DNA of 64,000 bases, taken from positions 32,001 through 96,000 of the forward strand of contig CAWJKV010000006.1 in assembly GCA_963843555.1 (NCBI GenBank). The letters are read 5' to 3'. Source of the DNA: an uncultured Methanosarcinales archaeon (GTDB lineage Archaea > Halobacteriota > Methanosarcinia > Methanotrichales > Methanotrichaceae). The notes under the pieces were generated by a model. It was not told the DNA's origin. It saw nothing but the letters and a program-made list of their open reading frames with translations, and ran no database searches. Of this stretch, positions 6,727 through 40,506 are shown in pieces. Every line of letters begins with the position of its first letter. The stretch's first letter is position 1. The translations under genes and the position numbers were made by a program.

Positions 6727-7004
6727 TGACTTTCGCCCTCATTCATTTGGCTTGCAGCAGCTATGTGGAAGCAAACGAAATATACCCTGCGGTAGGCTCT
6801 TGGAGCCAGAACCGCAAATTGTAGATTAATTTGACCCAGGTTCTTGCTGATGAGTAAGACCAAAGAGGAGGCTTTGAAGCCGCACTTACGAGGATGATGA
6901 TTCTGCGCAAATAGTAGTTCTGGAGAGAGCACATCGCCTGATTTTACTCCAGGAATATCATCCGTCCCAAAACAGTTATATCTACATTTTTCGGTCCTGA
7001 TGCC

Positions 7005-7556
7005 ATGAAAGAATGGAATAAGATCTTAAGAGTTATGGTACTGCTCTCCATCTTCTTGGTTCTCGCATCGGTCGCGAATTCCCAGATGAACCGGGATAGT
7101 CCATTTCTGGGTGGCAAGCTTCCCAGGACAGCCGACGAGAGCGTAGCCAATAAAGGTCCGCAGCCCGGGTCTTCGTTCACGATCTCGGAGCCCTTCAACA
7201 ATCAAGCAGTTTCGGATTTGGTGATTTCCCCCGATCAGCAGAATACGACCTGCAATCAAGTCTCATTCCTGTTAACTCTGACTCCATCTACCAGCGGCTC
7301 AACAGGATATCAATCGGTGAAGGTGAGGGTTTTGGAAAACCGCATCGGCTCGCCTAAGGCGGTTGCTGAACTGACTCTACTCATGCCTGTTTCTGGAGGA
7401 TCAGTTCAAGAGACCATCGGCTTCTCGAGTGATGCTCAGGCAGCGGGGCAGAATATTACCAATCAGATAACGGTCAATGCAGACCCCGATAATGAAATCA
7501 AGGAGACGAATGAGGGAAATAATGGCCTGACCATTAGCGGGACTTGCTCGGGATAA
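7005..7556 (+). CDS. Secreted protein with CARDB-like C-terminal domain
   Basis: Signal peptide; VNADPDNEIKETNEGNN is the typical CARDB C-terminal motif. Confidence 0.7.
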   Translation: MKEWNKILRVMVLLSIFLVLASVANSQMNRDSPFLGGKLPRTADESVANKGPQPGSSFTISEPFNNQAVSDLVISPDQQNTTCNQVSFLLTLTPSTSGSTGYQSVKVRVLENRIGSPKAVAELTLLMPVSGGSVQETIGFSSDAQAAGQNITNQITVNADPDNEIKETNEGNNGLTISGTCSG

Positions 7557-19064: not shown

Positions 19065-21700
19065 TTACGAGCCCGGGTTAAGTTGCTCCAGCTCCTTGGC
19101 CCTGGCGAAGGCAGCATCGGCTTCGGTGGTCCTTCCAAGGGCTTCAAGAGCGAGGCCTTTGCTATACCAGACCAGAGAAAGGTTAGGATCTATTCCGATG
19201 ACCTCGTCGTAAGCCTCGATCGATTCATTGTATTTGCCCAGACTATAGAGGGCGAATCCTTTGGCACCCCAGGCTACGGAAAGATTGGGATCCAGAAGAA
19301 TGGCCTCATCGAAAGCCTCGATGGATTCATTGTATTTGCCTTGTTTACCGAGAGCAATGCCTTTGACAATCCAGGCTGAGGAAAGATTGGGATCGAGCCT
19401 GAGGGCCTCGTCGGAAGCCTCGATGGATTCATTGTATTTGCCTGTTTACCGAGAGCAGTGCCTTTGTTATTCCAGCCATTGCATAGTTGGGATCGAGCCG
19501 GATAGCTTCATCGTTGGCTTCGATAGATTGATTGAATTTGCCCAGGTCATAGAGCGCAAGGCCTTTGTTGTACCAGGCATTGGCATATTGGGGATTGATT
19601 CTGATGGCTTCATCGTAAGCCTTGATAGCCTCATCGTATTTGCCTAGAACAGTGAAAGCATTGCCTTTGTTGTTCCAGGACTCGGAATTATTGGGATCAA
19701 GCCGTGTGGCTTCATCATAAGCCCTGATAGCCTCATCGTACTTGCCAAGGCCATAAAGATCAATGCCTTTGCCGTTCCAGGCATAGACATAGTTGGGATC
19801 AAGTCGAATGGCCTCCTCAATCGCTTTGATCGACTTATCATAATTGCCCTGGATGCCGAGTGCATTTCCCTTAATATACCAGGTTGTTGCATCGTTCGGA
19901 TCCAGCCGGAGGGCCTCGTCACTCGCCTCGATCGACTCATTGTACTTTCTCTGGTAATAGAGAGCAACGCCTTTGCTATTCCAGGCTGCCGCAAGGTCTG
20001 GATCTAGTCGGATGGCCTCATCATACGCCTTGATAGCCTCATCATACTTGCCTTGGGTACCAAGCACATTGCCCTTATTGCACCAGGCGGCGGCGAGGTT
20101 GGGGTCGAGACGGATGGTCTCGTCATATGCCTTGATAGCTTCATCATACTTCCTCTGGTGATAGAGAGAAGTGCCTTTGTTGCTCCAAGCGGCCGAAATT
20201 TTGGGATCTAGCCGGATGGCCTCGTTACTCGCCTCGATTGACTCATTGTACTTGCCCTGCTTATCAAGAGCGATGCCTTTGTTAAGCCAGGATGCAGCAA
20301 AGTTGGGATCTAACCGGATAGCCTCATCACATGCCTTGATAGCCTCGTCGTACTTACCCTGGTTATAAAGGGCAAAGCCCTTATTGGACAATGATGCCGC
20401 GAAGTTGGGATTCAGCCTGGTAGCCTCATCGAAAGCCTCGATAGATTGGTTGAATTTGGCCTGGCTAAATAGAGCAAGACCTTTGTTGTTCCAGGCCATT
20501 GCGAGGTTGGGATCGAGTCGGATGGCTTCATCATAGGCCTCGATAGATTGCTTGAATTTGCTCAGGTTATAGAGAGCATTGCCTTTATTGTTCCAGGCCA
20601 TTGCGAGGTTGGGATCCAGTCGGATGGCTTCATCATAGGCCTCGATAGATTGGTTGAATTTGCTCAGGTTATAGAGAGCATTGCCTTTATTGTTCCAGGC
20701 CATTGCGAGGTTGGGATCCAGTCGGATGGCTTCATCATAGGCCTCGATAGATTGGTTGAATTTGCTCAGGTTATAGAGAGCATTGCCTTTATTGTTCCAG
20801 GCCATTGCGAGGTTGGGATCCAGTCGAATGGCTTCATCGTAAGCCTCGATGGATTCGTTGATATTTGCTCAGGTTATGGAGAGCATTGCCTTTATTATTC
20901 CAGGCACCTGCATAATTTGGGTCTAGTCAGGATGGCCTCATCGTAAGCCTCGATGGATTCGTTGATTCTGCCCAGGTTATCGAGAGCATTGCCTTTATTG
21001 TTCCAGGCCATTGCGAGGTTGGGATCCAGCCGGATAGCTTCATCATAGGCCTCGATGGATTCGTTGAATTTGCTCAGGTTATGGAGAGCATTGCCCTTAT
21101 TATTCCAGGCACCTGCATAATTTGGGTCTATCAGGATGGCCTCATCGTAAGCCTCGATGGATTCGTTGATTCTGCCCAGGTTATCGAGAGCATTGCCTTT
21201 ATTATTCCAGGCCATTGCGAGTTTGGGATCCAGCCGGATAGCTTCATCATAGGCCTCGATAGTTTCGTTGTATTTTGCCCAGATCATAGAGCACAAGGCC
21301 TTTGTTGTACCAAGCCATTAGAATAATTTGGGTCTATTCGGATGGCCTCATCGTAGGCCTCGATGGATTCGTTGAATTTGCTCAAGTTATGGAGAGCATT
21401 GCCTTTATTATTCCAGTGTAGCATGCACCGTTAGGATCGAGATTTATGGCTTCATTAAATGCCTCGATGGATTCATTGAATTTGCCCAGGGCATAGAGTG
21501 CAACGCCTTTGTCGTTCCAGACTGCTACAAGATTTGGATTCAGCCTGAGGGACTCGTCATATGCCTTGACGGCTTCGTCATACTTGCTCTGGCATATAAA
21601 GTGAAATGCCTTTGTTGAACCAGTCTTCTGATGTCTGCTGACATTGTGCTGACGTCATAAATATCAGCAGAAGGATGAAAACAGCATAGACCAATCTCAT
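19065..21700 (-). CDS. Large secreted TPR-repeat protein, split by several frameshifts
   Basis: Starts MRLVYAVFILLLIFMTSAQCQQTSEDWFNKG; many 34-aa repeats (AWNNKGNAL...YDEAIRLDP); ends ALGRTTEADAAFARAKELEQLNPGS*. Confidence 0.85.
20479..20830. repeat. Near-identical 102-bp tandem repeats (TPR units)
   Basis: The unit gcctttattgttccaggccattgcgagg... recurs at 20581, 20683 and 20785, with a related unit at 20479. Confidence 0.9.
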
Positions 21701-34038: not shown

Positions 34039-35163
34039 AGATTGAGGCCTCTGCAGATGGCTCCGGCATCCAGCTAACTCGCCCGCGGCCCTGCTGCACC
34101 GCTGGCAAAGCCGGTCATGGACCGGATCAATAAGATCTTCAATGATGAGAAGCCCATCAGCTCCGGCCCTGACAAATTCATCTTCTCGACCTGGGTTCCG
34201 CCTGCACCAAGCCTTGCTTTCGACCGCATGCTCTCCGCTCAGGTAGGGGCGATGATCCATAGGCCCGTTCCAGACCAATTTTCTATAGCCGTCATGAAGG
34301 CCTGCCCCAATGATTGCATCCACTGCAGCGCGCCATCCCGCCAGGGAGAGATACTGGAGAGCGAGACCGTCAAGAATGCAATCTCCCAGGCTCTGGATAT
34401 GGGATCGTACCTGATAACCTTCGACGGGGGCGAGCCCATGCTGCGCCGGGACCTGCCGGACCTGGTCACGTCTGTGGACGAGCGGGCCGTGGCCACCGCT
34501 TTCACGAGCGGCTACCATCTCACGCCGGAGCTGGCAAAGCAGCTGAAAGAGGCCGGGCTTTATGCTGTGCGCATCAGCATCGACAGCCCCTTCGAGAAGG
34601 AGCATGACCGGGTGCGTGGCCGCTCTGGGCGCCTTCCAGGATGCCCTCATCCGGCGTTCGGAATGCGCTGGACGCCGGTCTCTTGGTGGACCTCTTCATG
34701 GTGACCTCTCCGCACAACATCGACCATCTGGAGGAGGCGTTCGTCTGGCTGCCGACTTAGGCGCGCATGAGCTTTCCTTTTACGAGATCGTGGCGGTGGG
34801 ACGCTGGGCTGCCCATGAGGACGAGGTGCTGGACGTAGACGATGTGGCAGGCTGGAGCGCTTCCATAAGGAGAAGAATAGAACGAGCGGAGCCGGAGGAC
34901 CCCAGGGTCACAGCTCTCCCCTACTTGCTCGAGCCCGAAGATGTTCGGGTGCTTCGCAGGACGGCGGTGGATTCACGTGGACGGCTCGGGCGAGGCCCTG
35001 CCCTGCGCCTACATGCCCCTGACCTTCGGGAACATCAAAGAAAAGAGTCTGAAGGAGATCTGGAAGGAGATGACGCACATATGGGTGGTTCAAGGGGAGA
35101 TGCTCCTGCCAGATGAGGGACCCGAAGTTCAGAGAAGCGCATAAGGGGATTCTGGGGAAATAA
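34011..35163 (+). CDS. Radical SAM/SPASM-domain protein; several frameshifts
   Basis: CPNDCIHC, FDGGEPMLR, ISID; C-terminal GCFAGRRWIHVDGSGEALPCAY...GNIKEKSLKEIW; start overlaps the prenyltransferase end. Confidence 0.82.
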
Positions 35164-35172
35164 TTCGAGCAA

Positions 35173-35424
35173 ATGAAACTTAACATTGTCATAGAGAAAG
35201 ATGATGAAGGCAGATATGCAGCCGAGTGTCCCGACCTTCCAGGTTGCCTTTCAGAAGGAGAGACCCTGGAAGATGCTCTGGAAAACGTTTTCGAGGCAAT
35301 AATCGGGTGCCTGAAATCCAGGCTCAAAGAACGCAGCAAGCGGCTTAAGATAACTTCATTCGATCGCAGGTTGGACATATTGCTGGATCTGCAAGGCAAC
35401 TCATATGTGCAAGTTTCTATGTAG
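35173..35424 (+). CDS. HicB-family antitoxin (no adjacent hicA seen)
   Basis: DDEGRYAAECPDLPGCLSEGETLEDALENVFEAI. Confidence 0.88.
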   Translation: MKLNIVIEKDDEGRYAAECPDLPGCLSEGETLEDALENVFEAIIGCLKSRLKERSKRLKITSFDRRLDILLDLQGNSYVQVSM

Positions 35425-35609
35425 CATTTCGGCCAAGGCTTGCTGAAGGTCTCTCCAGGCCTCTTGGGGTCGGGCAGCTCATGCCCATACCGGCTCAGTG
35501 ACAGCGAGACGCTTGGTGGCAAGTATGGCTATATTGTTAAGATTGGAAAACAGATATAGCTTTTGCAGTTGCAGGAATGGCTTTAAGTCTCGAACATTCT
35601 TTTGGGATG

Positions 35610-35677
35610 CCGCGAGTCGGCCTGCGGGCCTCCCGCGCTATGGTGGTGCGCCCTCAACGCCGGGCAGGCTTGGATAC
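35610..35677 (+). repeat. GC-rich dispersed repeat (family B)
   Basis: Shares 35 nt with 30975 and its 3' part with the inverted copy at 23261. Confidence 0.8.
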
Positions 35678-35822
35678 ACTTCCGGGAACGGTTGATAGAT
35701 TGAATTATTGCGCTCGAAGCAGCCGGTGTTTCTTGCTTGAGATCCTCGACCATTGGCCGGAAGGAAGAAATTAAAAAGAATTAAATGGAATGGCAGAATA
35801 CAATTGGATAAAAGGAAGAACA

Positions 35823-36083
35823 ATGTCTGAAGCCATTCGCCTGAAGAGTGTCGGACGCAATTTGGAGAAGCTCCTCGAAGGGCTATCTCTTGGAGAATCC
35901 ATTACCTTGATAGGACCGGAAGGATGCCCTGTAGCCCTGCTTGTATCGCTCAATCCAGGAAATATCGTGAAAAAGCCAGATGTCGATTGGGATTCCAGGA
36001 TGGATGACCTGGCCCGAAAGGTGAGCCGTGCCTGGAAGGGTGAACGAAGCGCTGTGGATGTCCTCTCGGAGATGCGAAGGTGA
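35823..36083 (+). CDS. Putative antitoxin (Phd/YefM-like N-terminus)
   Basis: NLEKLLE...GESITLI...PVALLV; GTGA overlap with the downstream PIN gene. Confidence 0.65.
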   Translation: MSEAIRLKSVGRNLEKLLEGLSLGESITLIGPEGCPVALLVSLNPGNIVKKPDVDWDSRMDDLARKVSRAWKGERSAVDVLSEMRR

Positions 36084-36512
36084 AGTGCACTATCGACGCC
36101 AGCGTCTTTGTCGCTTCTGCACGGTACGATGAGCCTCGCTATCTCATAAGCCGAGAGTTCTTGCGAGAGGCACAAGCTTATGAGATCTATTGTCCCTCAC
36201 TCGTCCTGGCAGAATGCGCTGCGGCTATTGCCAGGCAGACTGATGATCCGTCGCTGGCTGAAGAGCTTGTTTGCATAATTAAAGATTTTCCCGGCATCAA
36301 TCTCATATCTCTTGATCTCCCGTTAGCCCGAAAGGCTTCAAAGATTGCACCTAAGGAATCGATTGAGAGGTGCTGACGCGGTTTATGCTGCCGTTGCGGT
36401 AGTTTTTGATGCAATACTGATCTCTTGGGATCAGGAGATGCTGAAGCGCTGTCCTCAGACAGTGAAGACAATCTCGCCAGACCAATGGCGCCAATCACAT
36501 CAGCCTAGCTGA
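36080..36512 (+). CDS. PIN-domain toxin (VapC-like); frameshift near 36355
   Basis: TIDASVFV...LAECAAAIAR; after the shift, LRGADAVYAAVA...LISWDQEM. Confidence 0.82.
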
Positions 36513-36916: not shown

Positions 36917-37382
36917 ACGGATTGTTTTCAGTCTATAAACAAAAAGTCAATAGCACGCAAACATAATGCCACGCATGCTCACAGAGTTATTCAAGACTGA
37001 GGAGCGAGCCAGGGCCCTGCGCTAATGTGATGTTTCGCAGTGCCTTCAGCGTGGCCGAGGTCTCAAGGCCGTAGGCGTCACCTGGGCTCGTTTCTCGCTA
37101 TTTTCGCTTCCGGGAAATGCACAGCCTGCCTCCTGATAGCATGTTTAGAGAAGATGCAGAAGGATTCGAGCCAGCAGGCTGACAGCGAAGTCAATCTGCC
37201 GGTGCTGACGCCCGAAAAGTTTGGCGAGAGATCTCGCTTTGCGGCCCCAATCAATTATCAGATCGCAGGAAGGGATATGACGATAGTGCTTGGGCTGTCT
37301 GTTGTAAAACGCTTTCTTCTTCCAACTCTGCGACGGCGAACGCGTGGTGATATATCATGCACAAAACAGCCTCATTGATAAC

Positions 37383-37778
37383 TCATTTCCAGAATTGCCA
37401 CCAATGCTTAAGGCTATCAGCCATCACATATACGGAGCAGCGACCACCCAAACTTTTGTTCCACCACTGACAGTATCTCTCCAGACATACCAATCGTGTT
37501 AGCGGGCAAATCTTTTCAGACATCTTATAACTTCCAACGTTTGGTTGTTGCTTGTATCGCTGCACGGCAGCTACTTCTGGAGAGACTACTGTAATCTCCG
37601 AGGCTTTCTTGGCTTCGGCAAGAGCGCTTTCATCAATCAACGGCTGGTGGCCAGCGGCTGGTGCATTGTCACTGGTTTCTGGCATCTGGTTGCTGGTAGC
37701 TGGCGGCTTGTCGCTGGTGGCTGGCGACAATCCTTCAAAAATCGCGGCTCTGCCTTTGCCGATTGCTTCTTTAGTCAT
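37383..37778 (-). CDS. ParA partner protein: ParB-like N-terminal peptide, repeat linker and Cys-rich C-terminus
   Basis: MTKEAIGKGRAAIFEGL; PATSDKP-type repeats; CPLTRLVCLERYCQWW...GRCSV; overlaps the parA stop. Confidence 0.75.
   Translation of the reverse strand: MTKEAIGKGRAAIFEGLSPATSDKPPATSNQMPETSDNAPAAGHQPLIDESALAEAKKASEITVVSPEVAAVQRYKQQPNVGSYKMSEKICPLTRLVCLERYCQWWNKSLGGRCSVYVMADSLKHWWQFWK
37641..37724. repeat. Array of 12 tandem 7-bp units (NNNCTGG / CCAGNNN)
   Basis: cggctgg tggccag cggctgg tgcattg tcactgg tttctgg catctgg ttgctgg tagctgg cggcttg tcgctgg tggctgg. Confidence 0.85.
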
Positions 37779-38532
37779 TCAGAAATTCCTCCGTGAACTG
37801 TTGGTATGCCCTGGCTCCAAGAGAAAAAGGAGCATAAAGGACGACAGGCTTGCCGAAACTTGGCGCTTCGGCAACACTTATGTTACGTGGGATTGTGGTC
37901 TTGAATACTTGTTCTTTGAATTGCTCATGCATCATGTTAATAGCCTCGCGGCTATGATTGGTTCTAACAACCATAGTAATTAAGAAATGTATCTGCGGGC
38001 GGTGGCCCATGTACTTTTCAACATCATTCATTGTCTGTATCAGATCCGCTGTGCCTTCAAGTGAGCTGTACTCCGCTTGCATAGGCACAATGACCTCACT
38101 GCAGGCCAACAATCCGTTTAAAGTGAGTACGTTCATGCCCGGCTCGCAGTCGATTATTACAAAATCGTAAGGCTGGTGGCTGGAGGCTGGCAGCTGGTCT
38201 AATAGCCTCTTTAGAATAGATCCGCGGGCATTCTTTCCAACCAGCTCTTCTTTTGCGCCGTCCAGCTCGATGTTTGCAGGAATGATATCCACATTATCGA
38301 TAGGGGTGGAGCAGATTATCTCGGAAAGAGGTTTCTCATGCACTAGAGCGTCGTAGATTGTGCTTTTCAATTGCCGTTTATCCAATCCAATTTGGACGGT
38401 AGCTCCTCCTTGAGGATCCAAGTCAACGATTAGTATCCGAAATCCTTTCTGAGCAAGGCAGACCGCCAGGTTGTCAACGGTCGTGGTCTTGGCGGTCCCT
38501 CCTTTACGGTTGATTACCGCGATTATCCTCAT
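37771..38532 (-). CDS. parA: ParA/Soj family ATPase
   Basis: Deviant Walker A NRKGGTAKTT, VDLDPQG, FVIIDCEP, IPRNISVAEAPSFG. Confidence 0.93.
   Translation of the reverse strand: MRIIAVINRKGGTAKTTTVDNLAVCLAQKGFRILIVDLDPQGGATVQIGLDKRQLKSTIYDALVHEKPLSEIICSTPIDNVDIIPANIELDGAKEELVGKNARGSILKRLLDQLPASSHQPYDFVIIDCEPGMNVLTLNGLLACSEVIVPMQAEYSSLEGTADLIQTMNDVEKYMGHRPQIHFLITMVVRTNHSREAINMMHEQFKEQVFKTTIPRNISVAEAPSFGKPVVLYAPFSLGARAYQQFTEEFLND
38170..38197. repeat. Four tandem 7-bp units inside parA
   Basis: aggctgg tggctgg aggctgg cagctgg. Confidence 0.8.
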
Positions 38533-38554
38533 TCAGTGTATATAACATCTCAAT

Positions 38555-38590
38555 GATTTAAGAGGCTTTTTGCTGGCATCTGGTAACTGG
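38555..38590 (-). promoter_or_regulatory. parA promoter (BRE/TATA) abutted by three 7-bp units
   Basis: Minus strand reads ccagtta ccagatg ccagcaa aaagcctCTTAAAT, with the TATA-like box about 25-30 nt before the ATG. Confidence 0.6.
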
Positions 38591-39014
38591 TCACATATGA
38601 AGAGCAGAAGACTGAAAATCCATGCAGAGTACTCTTCTGAACTTGCCAAGCAAGGTACCATGATCGCCTGGCAGCGAGTCCGAAGAATATTCCATTCATA
38701 ACCAGAAAGATGTCCAGGGAAGTCCCTCAGAGCCATGTGACCGAGCATAAGCCTCCAGGGCTGCAGAAAAGATGCCGATCCAGTTGAAATACCGGTCGAC
38801 ACCGAAACAGAAGATCCCAAGAATTACCAATAACCTAAATTGCAGGGCGCCCTGCATCCCATGGCAGAAGGCATCGGGAAGCTGGAGGAGATTATCGAAT
38901 GCAAGTGCCTATCGCAGATAGGATCTCGGAAATGGCGAATGAGAACCGTGAGAGGCTGCATCGGAAACTAGACTCATCTAAAATAGCCCATGACAGTGGA
39001 TCTGTGGTGGACAC

Positions 39015-39200: not shown

Positions 39201-39326
39201 ATCTACAAAGTTGGCCCTCGTGGCTTCATCACATCCATCTGCGGCGTGATTCCGGCAGAATCTTCTTTCAACCGCAAACTACAAATATCTATAACGATTA
39301 TATAGATAGTTTGCCGCTTCATGCAA

Positions 39327-39790
39327 GGGGTGGCGGGCGTGTCGTGGGCTTAACCAGGCCGATAATGCTCTGTTGGCAAGGCTGATTTGATCGCTGTCCC
39401 TCCGGGGGGCGGCTTGCGGTCGCTTACAGATCAGATCGCTTCCTTGTTCCAGGAGATGCATGTCGTCGTGGCACTGCATTCGGGCTTGAGAGCCTGTGAG
39501 ACTGAAACTTCGGCAACAAAAAAAGTTGCGCACTGTAACAGGTGCAGTACTCTGTCGAAGGATCTCGCGCTAATACACGACCGGGGCATGTTGCGGCACA
39601 AAGCCAAGGCGAGAGGCGAGCGTGAGGCCCAGTGAGTTCGGGTTCCTAATTTGTGGACGCTGTGTTCGATTCCAGTGCGAATGCCGCCTGTTGGCATAAT
39701 GTCAAGCTCCGGGCAGGGCCAGGTCATCACTTCGGTGAGCGGCTCCTCTAAAAGGGCGCTGTGGATTTCGGCGCTGGCCCACCTGAGTAT
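39327..39790 (+). ncRNA. Candidate large structured non-coding RNA (unidentified)
   Basis: TTATATA box at 39298-39304, many G-U-containing helices, a cUUCGg hairpin, possible end-to-end pairing and a pyrimidine-rich tail; no convincing ORF. Confidence 0.5.
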
Positions 39791-39893
39791 CGCTTATGCT
39801 GTTCTCTGTCTTTCCCTTTGATGATGACGATTCTTGCTCTCGATTCTTCCCTAGTCGAAAACCTTAAATATAGACAATCGACGTATAGAATCT

Positions 39894-39960
39894 AGGCGAA
39901 AGTCGACGGCCTATTTTCTCCCTCCTTCATCCTGATGACTTTTGCCTCCCTCCTTCTTAT
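39894..39960 (+). ncRNA. Candidate small regulatory RNA with anti-SD motifs
   Basis: GAAAA-CCTTAAATA promoter upstream; stem AGGCGAAAGTC/GACTTTTGCCT; CTCCCTCCTTC in the loop and again at the 3' end. Confidence 0.5.
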
Positions 39961-40416
39961 CGATCCAACACTTCATGATGTTCATTGCATCCGATTTCAT
40001 CCTCAGATTCTCGAAAGAAAGGCTTAAAGGCCACCCCGTTCCTTCAAGAACTCCCGCCTTGGGTGCATTCACAATATGACTATGGCGGAGAATATGGGGA
40101 GTGACCCTTCCACCCGGGAGAGCTTCTGTTTCCTTGAGATCTCCTGAACCTCAGCCTCAGTGTTCTGTGAAAAGGCGGACAGCTCTCCTATCGAAAAAGA
40201 GCGACTTCTGGCCTGGCACACCTCTCGGCCTGGAAATGCCCGGGTCTTCAAGAATGGCCTTTTTCAATCCCTAGCTTCTTCCGAAAATCTGCGGCGATGC
40301 CTCGGCTCGCATGGCCCTTTTTGAAGCAGACTTCTGGATAAATGGTGAGCCACATGATTGATCAGGAAGTGATTTGAAAGACCATCGTTACCTCCTCTTG
40401 TTAACTGTAAGAAAAG

Positions 40417-40506
40417 CGTCCCGACCGGGATTCGAACCCGGGTTGAAGGCTTACTGCGCCAAAAGTGCTCCGCAGGCCTCCGGGATGTCCACTACCCCAT
40501 CGGGAC
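40417..40506 (-). tRNA. tRNA-Arg(GCG) with 18-nt intron at the canonical 37/38 position (40452-40469)
   Basis: Acceptor GTCCCGA/TCGGGAC, anticodon stem GAGGC/GCCTT, T-loop GTTCGAATC; the intron CGCA pairs with TGCG to form a bulge-helix-bulge. Confidence 0.93.

What the first reader, a model, noticed from the sequence alone, without database searches (positions are those of the whole stretch)
37383..38590. Candidate undescribed partition system: ParA + Cys-rich adaptor + 7-bp centromere-like arrays
Seen: parA overlaps a 131-aa gene. The same 7-bp unit (CCAGNNN on the coding strand) occurs in tandem three times: 3 units abutting the parA BRE/TATA (38570-38590), 4 units inside parA (38170-38197, encoding a loop read as QLPASSHQP) and 12 units inside the partner gene (37641-37724). 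A period of 7 nt is not codon-based, and it also occurs in non-coding DNA, which points to selection on the DNA. Known: type Ib partition loci use small centromere-binding proteins that bind iterated repeats and autoregulate the promoter (e.g. omega on heptads in pSM19035). ParB/Spo0J proteins activate ParA through an N-terminal LGRGL-type peptide, and the partner starts AIGKGRAAIF. The partner has no recognisable ParB CTPase or HTH domain; it ends in a C-x6-C-x4-C-x10-C domain. Inference: this is a ParA-adaptor-centromere system with a new DNA-binding module, acting on the chromosome or an integrated element.
Basis: partly seen in the sequence, partly recalled or inferred. Interest (0 to 1): 0.85.

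Follow-up and report, generated by a model that had tools for sequence, protein, structure and literature searches.

The report
SegB with swapped DNA-binding domain
This is an archaeal DNA-partition gene pair of the known SegA/SegB kind with its likely 7-base binding-site repeats, but the partner protein has lost half of its DNA-binding fold and carries a conserved cysteine-and-tryptophan tail instead, which likely re-aims the ATPase at the membrane or another non-DNA cargo.

Summary
The arrays are real: all 3 strict (CCAGNNN)≥3 runs of the 2.68-Mb genome lie here. The system is not undescribed. The partner's closest intact relatives are SegB (profile to PDB 7DV2, E 7e-14), and a 7-bp triple just upstream of segA is the published Sulfolobus segS layout. 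Related segAB cassettes, mostly on mobile DNA, share locus-specific heptads between promoter and segB linker (11 of 14 loci); this scan noted such arrays before on other DNA. What is new is the partner. It keeps the ParA-activating N-terminus, but its ribbon-helix-helix is cut (profile positions 13-54 of 78; base-reading Lys is Glu) and drifting (dN/dS 0.5-1.2), and is replaced by a 46-residue Cys4 module ending WWQFWK under purifying selection (dN/dS 0-0.17). The module also occurs as free small genes, and a second SegB lineage carries the same swap. Best reading (0.4): a centromere-binding protein turned into a membrane or cargo adaptor for ParA, with the arrays largely inherited. No fold or binding could be shown.

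The parts
37302..38598 (-). segAB-type cassette, the unit shared with relatives while flanks differ
   Evidence: 95% over 1299 bp to G076, where it lies on another contig than both flanks; contig loose ends at 37377-37380 and 38594-38598
38570..38590 (-). promoter-proximal heptad triple (segS-type site, likely operator)
   Evidence: 1 of 21 columns variable in 4 orthologues vs 28 of 102 four-fold sites, p 0.011; one contig about one unit shorter
38554..38569 (-). likely BRE and TATA box, about 26 bp before the parA ATG (leaderless)
   Evidence: sequence, conserved in alignment; assignment from recalled promoter rules
37771..38532 (-). parA/segA, Soj-like ATPase, 253 aa, Walker A KGGTAKT
   Evidence: dN/dS 0.08-0.27
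38170..38197 (-). 4 heptads inside parA, coding a 4-residue loop insertion
   Evidence: 6 of 28 columns variable, not below background
37383..37778 (-). SegB-derived partner, 131 aa
37728..37778 (-). N-terminal peptide (res 1-17), predicted ParA activator
   Evidence: 1 of 17 columns variable in 7 homologues; role inferred from SegB residues 1-21 (PMC8682754)
37641..37724 (-). 12 heptads coding the disordered linker
   Evidence: dN/dS about 0.5-1.3 in most pairs
37524..37640 (-). RHH remnant (res 47-85): helix 1, strand, helix 2; Lys52-equivalent is Glu61, Trp56-equivalent is Val65
   Evidence: profile match E 2e-7, positions 13-54 of 78; 19 of 39 columns variable
37383..37523 (-). Cys4 module (res 86-131, begins with Met) replacing RHH helices 3-4
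   Evidence: 4 of 46 columns variable; dN/dS 0-0.17; free-standing relatives
37386..37418 (-). C-terminal Trp-rich basic helix, candidate membrane-targeting sequence
   Evidence: highest interface score and hydrophobic moment 0.5-0.6; helix in a low-confidence model
39266..39961 (.). multi-copy IS-like remnant upstream (context)
35173..36376 (+). HicB-like gene and a broken antitoxin-PIN pair downstream (context)
40416..40506 (-). tRNA-Arg(GCG), 3' end facing the variable region; no att duplicate found (context)

Best explanation
This is a SegAB-type partition cassette whose SegB has lost the second half of its DNA-binding fold and is fused to a conserved Cys4-Trp module, so that it likely works as an adaptor that ties the ParA ATPase to the membrane or another non-DNA cargo rather than to a centromere. 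Shown: SegB ancestry; truncation; purifying selection on ParA, on the N-terminal peptide and on the Cys module but not on the RHH remnant; a second SegB lineage with the same module. Inferred: the heptads are segS sites written by the ancestral RHH protein (operator at the promoter, centromere in the segB linker); the swap arose by deletion-fusion to a small neighbouring gene; ParA-ATP binds the nucleoid, the N-terminal peptide triggers hydrolysis and release, the four cysteines bind a metal, and the WWQFWK helix inserts in the membrane.
For: SegB ancestry: P0011 to 7DUV E 1.6e-4; profile of 21 partners to 7DV2 E 7e-14; window partner 60% identical to intact P0015 over residues 1-77. Derived state: the Cys-type ParA clade (100/100) is nested among ParAs with intact SegB partners (100/97, 100/99). 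Loss of DNA reading: K52 and W56 equivalents changed, helices 3-4 absent; K52A abolishes binding in Sulfolobus (PMC8682754); remnant 19 of 39 columns variable vs 4 of 46 in the module, Fisher p 5e-5. Module is a unit: free 55-73-aa ORFs in 5 genomes, small proteins P0019, P0020, P0023. Convergence: P0008, P0009, P0024 join it to the N-terminus of another SegB (54% identity to the L079 SegB over 52 aa) with no RHH trace (3 of 3 score below 0 bits). Tail: best interfacial segment of the protein, like the RocS sequence KKGFFARLFG (PMC13042908); A/D ATPase partners use an N-terminal region for the ATPase and varied cargo ends (PMC11407121).
Against: No fold for the module (pLDDT 48 and 56) and no known family, so metal and membrane binding are analogy only. 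The promoter triple is still conserved (1 of 21 columns, and that change keeps the palindrome), and the linker array is below four-fold divergence in 4 orthologues (11 of 84), which fits a protein still binding them. No cargo genes are conserved next to the cassette. Loci of the second lineage could not be fetched, so its link to a parA is inferred. No locus with intact segB directly followed by the free module was found.
Confidence: 0.4

Rival explanations
1. The Cys4 module is a new DNA-binding domain that took over the heptads: the cassette still autoregulates and partitions DNA.
For: Promoter triple conserved, p 0.011, with homology breaking just upstream of it; module is basic (net +4, sequence) and conserved; no intact segB found in the own genome (82% complete) or in G076 (68%).
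Against: Arrays predate the module; internal arrays erode (parA array 6 of 28 columns variable; L038 linker); one contig has a shorter promoter array; the same module sits on a second SegB whose linker shows no such repeat peptides; free relatives are not beside parA (0 of 5 loci).
Confidence: 0.2
2. Decoy or interference module: the fused protein and ParA disturb or borrow the partition machinery of incoming segAB elements, and the arrays are bound in trans by their intact SegB.
For: Intact segAB is patchy (29 of 105 genomes, up to 4 matches per genome) and lies among integrase, primase, ArdC, Hfq and toxin-antitoxin genes (5 of 5 contigs scanned); the cassette sits by TA genes near a tRNA 3' end.
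Against: No intact SegB with this specificity in G000 or G076; does not explain selection on the Cys module.
Confidence: 0.2
3. Stranded relic of a mobile element; the fusion is an accident with no function.
For: 1.3-kb orphan among IS remnants, no replication or integrase gene nearby, different neighbours in G076 and in L036-L038; found in 2 of 105 family genomes.
Against: Both frames intact in all 5 aligned loci, partner 131 aa in 7 of 7 clusters; dN/dS 0-0.17 in the module at pS up to 0.38; same swap in a second lineage; variants present in several wetland and sediment runs.
Confidence: 0.15

Closest known systems
SegAB/segS of Sulfolobales (Saccharolobus solfataricus SegB 7DUV/7DV2; S. acidocaldarius segS)
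   Same: Overlapping parA-partner operon; homologous partner; conserved N-terminus, variable linker; phased 7-bp site directly upstream, triple unique in the genome ([AGNGTNN]3; TCTAGA-S-TCTAGA). Relatives L025/L026 carry TCTAGA-S units.
   Different: Different unit (RCCAGY-N); arrays also inside both genes; no dispersed sites; RHH cut and replaced by a Cys4-Trp module; ParA closer to bacterial Soj (E 1e-51 to 1e-40) than to 7DUT (5e-14); cassette mobile; lineage not among those listed for SegB in the sections I read.
Type Ib plasmid partition, delta/omega of pSM19035 and ParF/ParG
   Same: ParA plus small N-peptide/RHH protein on heptad or short repeats near the promoter (RHH likeness stated in PMC8682754; autoregulation recalled).
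   Different: No sequence match of the partner; delta only E 2e-10 to this ParA; RHH not intact here.
Cargo adaptors of ParA/MinD ATPases (McdB; HpaB of Haloferax)
   Same: N-terminal ATPase-contacting region joined by a flexible linker to a cargo-binding end.
   Different: No homology found; cargo unknown; HpaB keeps an RHH.
RocS / TubY / MinD membrane-targeting helices
   Same: Short basic-aromatic helix at the extreme C-terminus (TubY seen in a search listing only).
   Different: No HTH or coiled coil; tail follows a Cys4 module; membrane binding untested.

Membership tests
SegB | gene overlaps the 3' end of a ParA-type segA | tested here: met
   8-bp overlap
SegB | sequence homology to SegB | tested here: met
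   via relatives; direct search gave no hit
SegB | C-terminal signature K/R-D/N-P-K/R-I-G/T-V/L-WS | tested here: not met
   reads KASEITVVS; Lys52 position is Glu in 7 of 7 close clusters
SegB | complete ribbon-helix-helix with helices 3 and 4 | tested here: not met
   profile covers 13-54 of 78; the rest is the Cys module
SegB | conserved N-terminal SegA-activating peptide | tested here: inconclusive
   conserved (1 of 17 variable); activity not testable
SegAB/segS | phased 7-bp site directly upstream of segA, rare elsewhere | tested here: met
SegAB/segS | site-specific DNA binding by the partner | not testable with these tools
   needs EMSA or ChIP
SegAB/segS | chromosomal role: dispersed sites, origin proximity | tested here: not met
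   doubles not enriched; cdc6 hits on C5, C4, C18, none on C6 (draft genome)
ParA/Soj ATPases | AAA_31 domain with deviant Walker A, A' and B | tested here: met
   Walker A reads KGGTAKT; motif names recalled
ParABS (ParB/Spo0J) | ParB CTPase and HTH domains | tested here: not met
   no Pfam or NCBIfam hit
RocS/TubY membrane anchors | C-terminal amphipathic membrane helix | tested here: inconclusive
   low-confidence helix
RocS/TubY membrane anchors | N-terminal HTH and coiled coil | tested here: not met
   no such domain

The most novel reading that the evidence does not exclude
Archaeal SegB has twice, independently, traded its DNA-binding domain for an uncharacterised Cys4 metal module with a membrane-targeting tail, turning a DNA-partition cassette into a ParA-driven positioning system for the membrane or a protein cargo: an evolutionary intermediate between centromere-binding proteins and cargo adaptors, still carrying its old centromere as a fossil inside its own genes.
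Probability: 0.3. Interest if true: 0.75.

Novelty: new variant of a known kind. Interest (0 to 1): 0.5.

Why it matters
ParA/MinD ATPases position DNA and protein cargos through unrelated adaptors, and how an adaptor changes cargo is not documented in the papers I read. Here the ancestral (RHH) and derived (Cys4-Trp) forms are 60% identical over the shared part and differ by one swap, so the switch can be tested with two small proteins. The family also extends SegB to mobile DNA of a methanogen family, with several natural pairs of RHH strand and heptad unit that make a SegB recognition code testable. The heptad/SegB architecture itself is known and had been noted by this scan elsewhere.

Tried and rejected
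AlphaFold2 of the partner (pLDDT 48) and of the module (56): too weak to use; Foldseek on the latter gave nothing. Homodimer-plus-zinc prediction of the module: no verdict, score 0.02, not evidence either way. ESM Atlas: no usable hit for the partner; only unnamed hypothetical clusters for P0019. No real hit for the module in phage records or viral contigs (short matches judged chance); none for intact P0011/P0015 in plasmids, viral or genome contigs or P0009 in genome contigs. Cluster-member names could not be looked up. The 'parA 3prime' row was out of frame and is discarded. Frameshifted-SegB origin of the module rejected: substitutions are synonymous in the Cys frame. No att duplicate of the tRNA 3' end. 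The one RNA run (X20) has contigs over both genes and none over the promoter, but contigs of one study do not show transcription. The k-mer co-variation test does not reach significance for this locus itself (p 0.076 at k=5, 0.21 at k=6). A weak second profile match in the own genome (C8, E 0.002) was translated but not resolved. Paper searches with no hit: 'WWQFW', 'WWKFW'+'membrane' (76), 'SegB'+'Methanothrix' (81); 'SegB plasmid methanogen partition' gave 7 general papers (105, listing only).

Full report
Observation. In the 2,683,679-base genome only 3 strict CCAGNNN runs reach 3 units, all within 1 kb here. Simulated half-genomes gave 5 triples in 6 runs and no longer run, so the promoter triple alone could be chance; the cluster is not. 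The unit is better read as RCCAGY plus one spacer, a pseudo-palindrome of period 7, and the single change seen in an orthologous promoter (L036) makes a perfect palindrome. No call named the host; it is an archaeon, and from recall of its genes a Methanothrix-like methanogen.

The partner is SegB-derived. A search gave 16 proteins among 19 candidates: 7 close full-length clusters, 6 that share the N-terminus, linker and a KITVFSP strand but end in a different domain, and 3 that share only the Cys module. One of the 6 hits SegB 7DUV (E 1.6e-4); a profile of 21 such partners hits 7DV2 at E 7e-14. That profile matches the window partner over positions 13-54 of 78 (E 2e-7). Aligned to the S. solfataricus numbering, Lys52 is Glu, Trp56 is Val, and everything after the Lys75-Met-Ser77 position is replaced. 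PMC8682754 (sections 21, 22 and passages) reports that K52A abolishes DNA binding, that helices 1-4 build the dimer and that residues 1-21 activate SegA. So this is not an intact SegB, but it comes from one.

The arrays are segS-type. bioRxiv 2025.04.15.649018 (parts 1-3 of 8 and passages) maps SegB binding to three AGNGTNN repeats at -25 to -6 of segA, unique in the genome; PMC12284271 (section 6 and passages) gives TCTAGA-S-TCTAGA. In the host family the SegB profile finds 29 of 105 genomes (18 of 64 good ones) and 8 of 401 across the phylum. I took 14 of 30 parsed loci, one per lineage: words repeated in the segB linker were enriched in the same locus's 100 bp upstream of parA in 11 of 14 at k=5 (p<0.01; own upstream ranked first in 11) and 9 of 14 at k=6; this locus itself was not significant. 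Units differ by lineage (TAATTA, CTTAAG, TCATGA, TCTAGA). The papers explain linker growth by GA tracts or 14-residue repeats and list Sulfolobaceae, Thermococcus and Methanobacteriales; their supplements, which hold the species lists, I did not read. Earlier notes of this scan describe the same intragenic arrays on other DNA (unchecked AI notes).

Context is mobile. Intact cassettes lie beside integrase, primase, ArdC, Hfq, transposase and toxin-antitoxin genes (5 of 5 contigs; 53 selected ORFs scanned). Here the cassette is a 1.3-kb unit from the promoter array to just past the partner; in G076 it is 95% identical but on another contig than both flanks, and L036-L038 have other neighbours. 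Contigs of public runs leave the window at 37377-37380 and 38594-38598; listed contigs bridge the fusion point in 2 of 4 runs, with no listed loose end there (93 records and 18 loose ends not shown). No cdc6 lies on this contig.

What selection keeps. Across 5 loci dN/dS is 0.08-0.27 for parA, 0-0.29 for residues 1-17, 0-0.17 for the Cys module, but 0.51-1.17 for the RHH remnant in 9 of 10 pairs (0.10 in the closest pair). Among 7 proteins 1 of 17, 4 of 46 and 19 of 39 columns vary. A ParA tree of 30 rows (L018 and L028 left out, start not parsed) nests the Cys-type clade among loci with intact SegB, so the swap is derived. The module starts with Met and exists alone: 5 ORFs of 55-73 aa among 392 genomes of the class, none beside parA, and small proteins elsewhere (10 hits, two of them Trp-repeat noise). 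Three proteins join it to the N-terminus of a different SegB and keep no RHH: a likely second, independent swap, though their loci could not be fetched.

What still points to DNA binding. The promoter triple varies at 1 of 21 columns against 28 of 102 four-fold sites (p 0.011); the linker array at 11 of 84 (coding, so confounded); the parA array at 6 of 28. L038's linker is more eroded and one of 2 runs covering the promoter appears about one unit shorter. Something may still bind the promoter array: the fused protein, an intact SegB in trans, or a basal factor.

Mechanism. Most likely ParA-ATP coats the nucleoid, the conserved peptide stimulates its release, and the new C-terminus holds the adaptor elsewhere. 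The last 11 residues have the best membrane-interface score in the protein (recalled scales), resemble the RocS and MinD tails (PMC13042908, passages), and similar WWxFW ends occur in short frames near segAB on 3 other contigs; 4 of 36,304 frames in the genome end so. PMC11407121 and PMC13722703 (passages) describe the peptide-linker-cargo plan of such adaptors. These steps are inferred; structure prediction failed.

Verdict. Known kind (SegAB with heptad segS), new variant (RHH replaced by a selected Cys4-Trp module, probably twice). Searches found no description, within an open-licence library only. Interest 0.5.

Noticed in passing
L075:251-1773, L076:1465-2991: SegB-family gene directly behind a non-ParA AAA+ ATPase instead of parA in two genomes of the same class.
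   Followed up: no
L074:303-2746: segAB convergent with a cdc6-like ORF, a possible origin-linked copy in another family of the phylum (cdc6 label from recall).
   Followed up: no
L007, L008, L011, L023: SegB proteins with two tandem RHH domains; L007 has a linker of over 900 bp made of heptad-containing repeats.
   Followed up: partly
L025, L026: Methanogen segAB loci whose arrays use the same TCTAGA-S unit as the Sulfolobus ChIP consensus.
   Followed up: partly
L003, L012, L014, L015, L025, L081, L084: Small Hfq-like gene recurs near segAB on these mobile stretches; L080 also has a TBP gene.
   Followed up: no
L014:227-340, L080:5593-5700 and 6967-7077, L081:11006-11164: Short frames ending in K-rich WWxFW motifs near segAB.
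   Followed up: partly
window 39266-39961 and 35590-35679: Multi-copy IS-like remnant and a short repeat with about 20 copies in the genome.
   Followed up: no
window 34117-35116 and 36080-36510: A radical-SAM-like gene (label from recall) and the PIN gene are split by frameshifts.
   Followed up: no
window 19285-21623: 102-bp tandem array, about 22 copies, TPR-like period.
   Followed up: no
L085:1819-1866: 13 residues identical to the fusion point in a closed frame of a viral contig; DNA differs at third positions and beyond; judged chance.
   Followed up: yes
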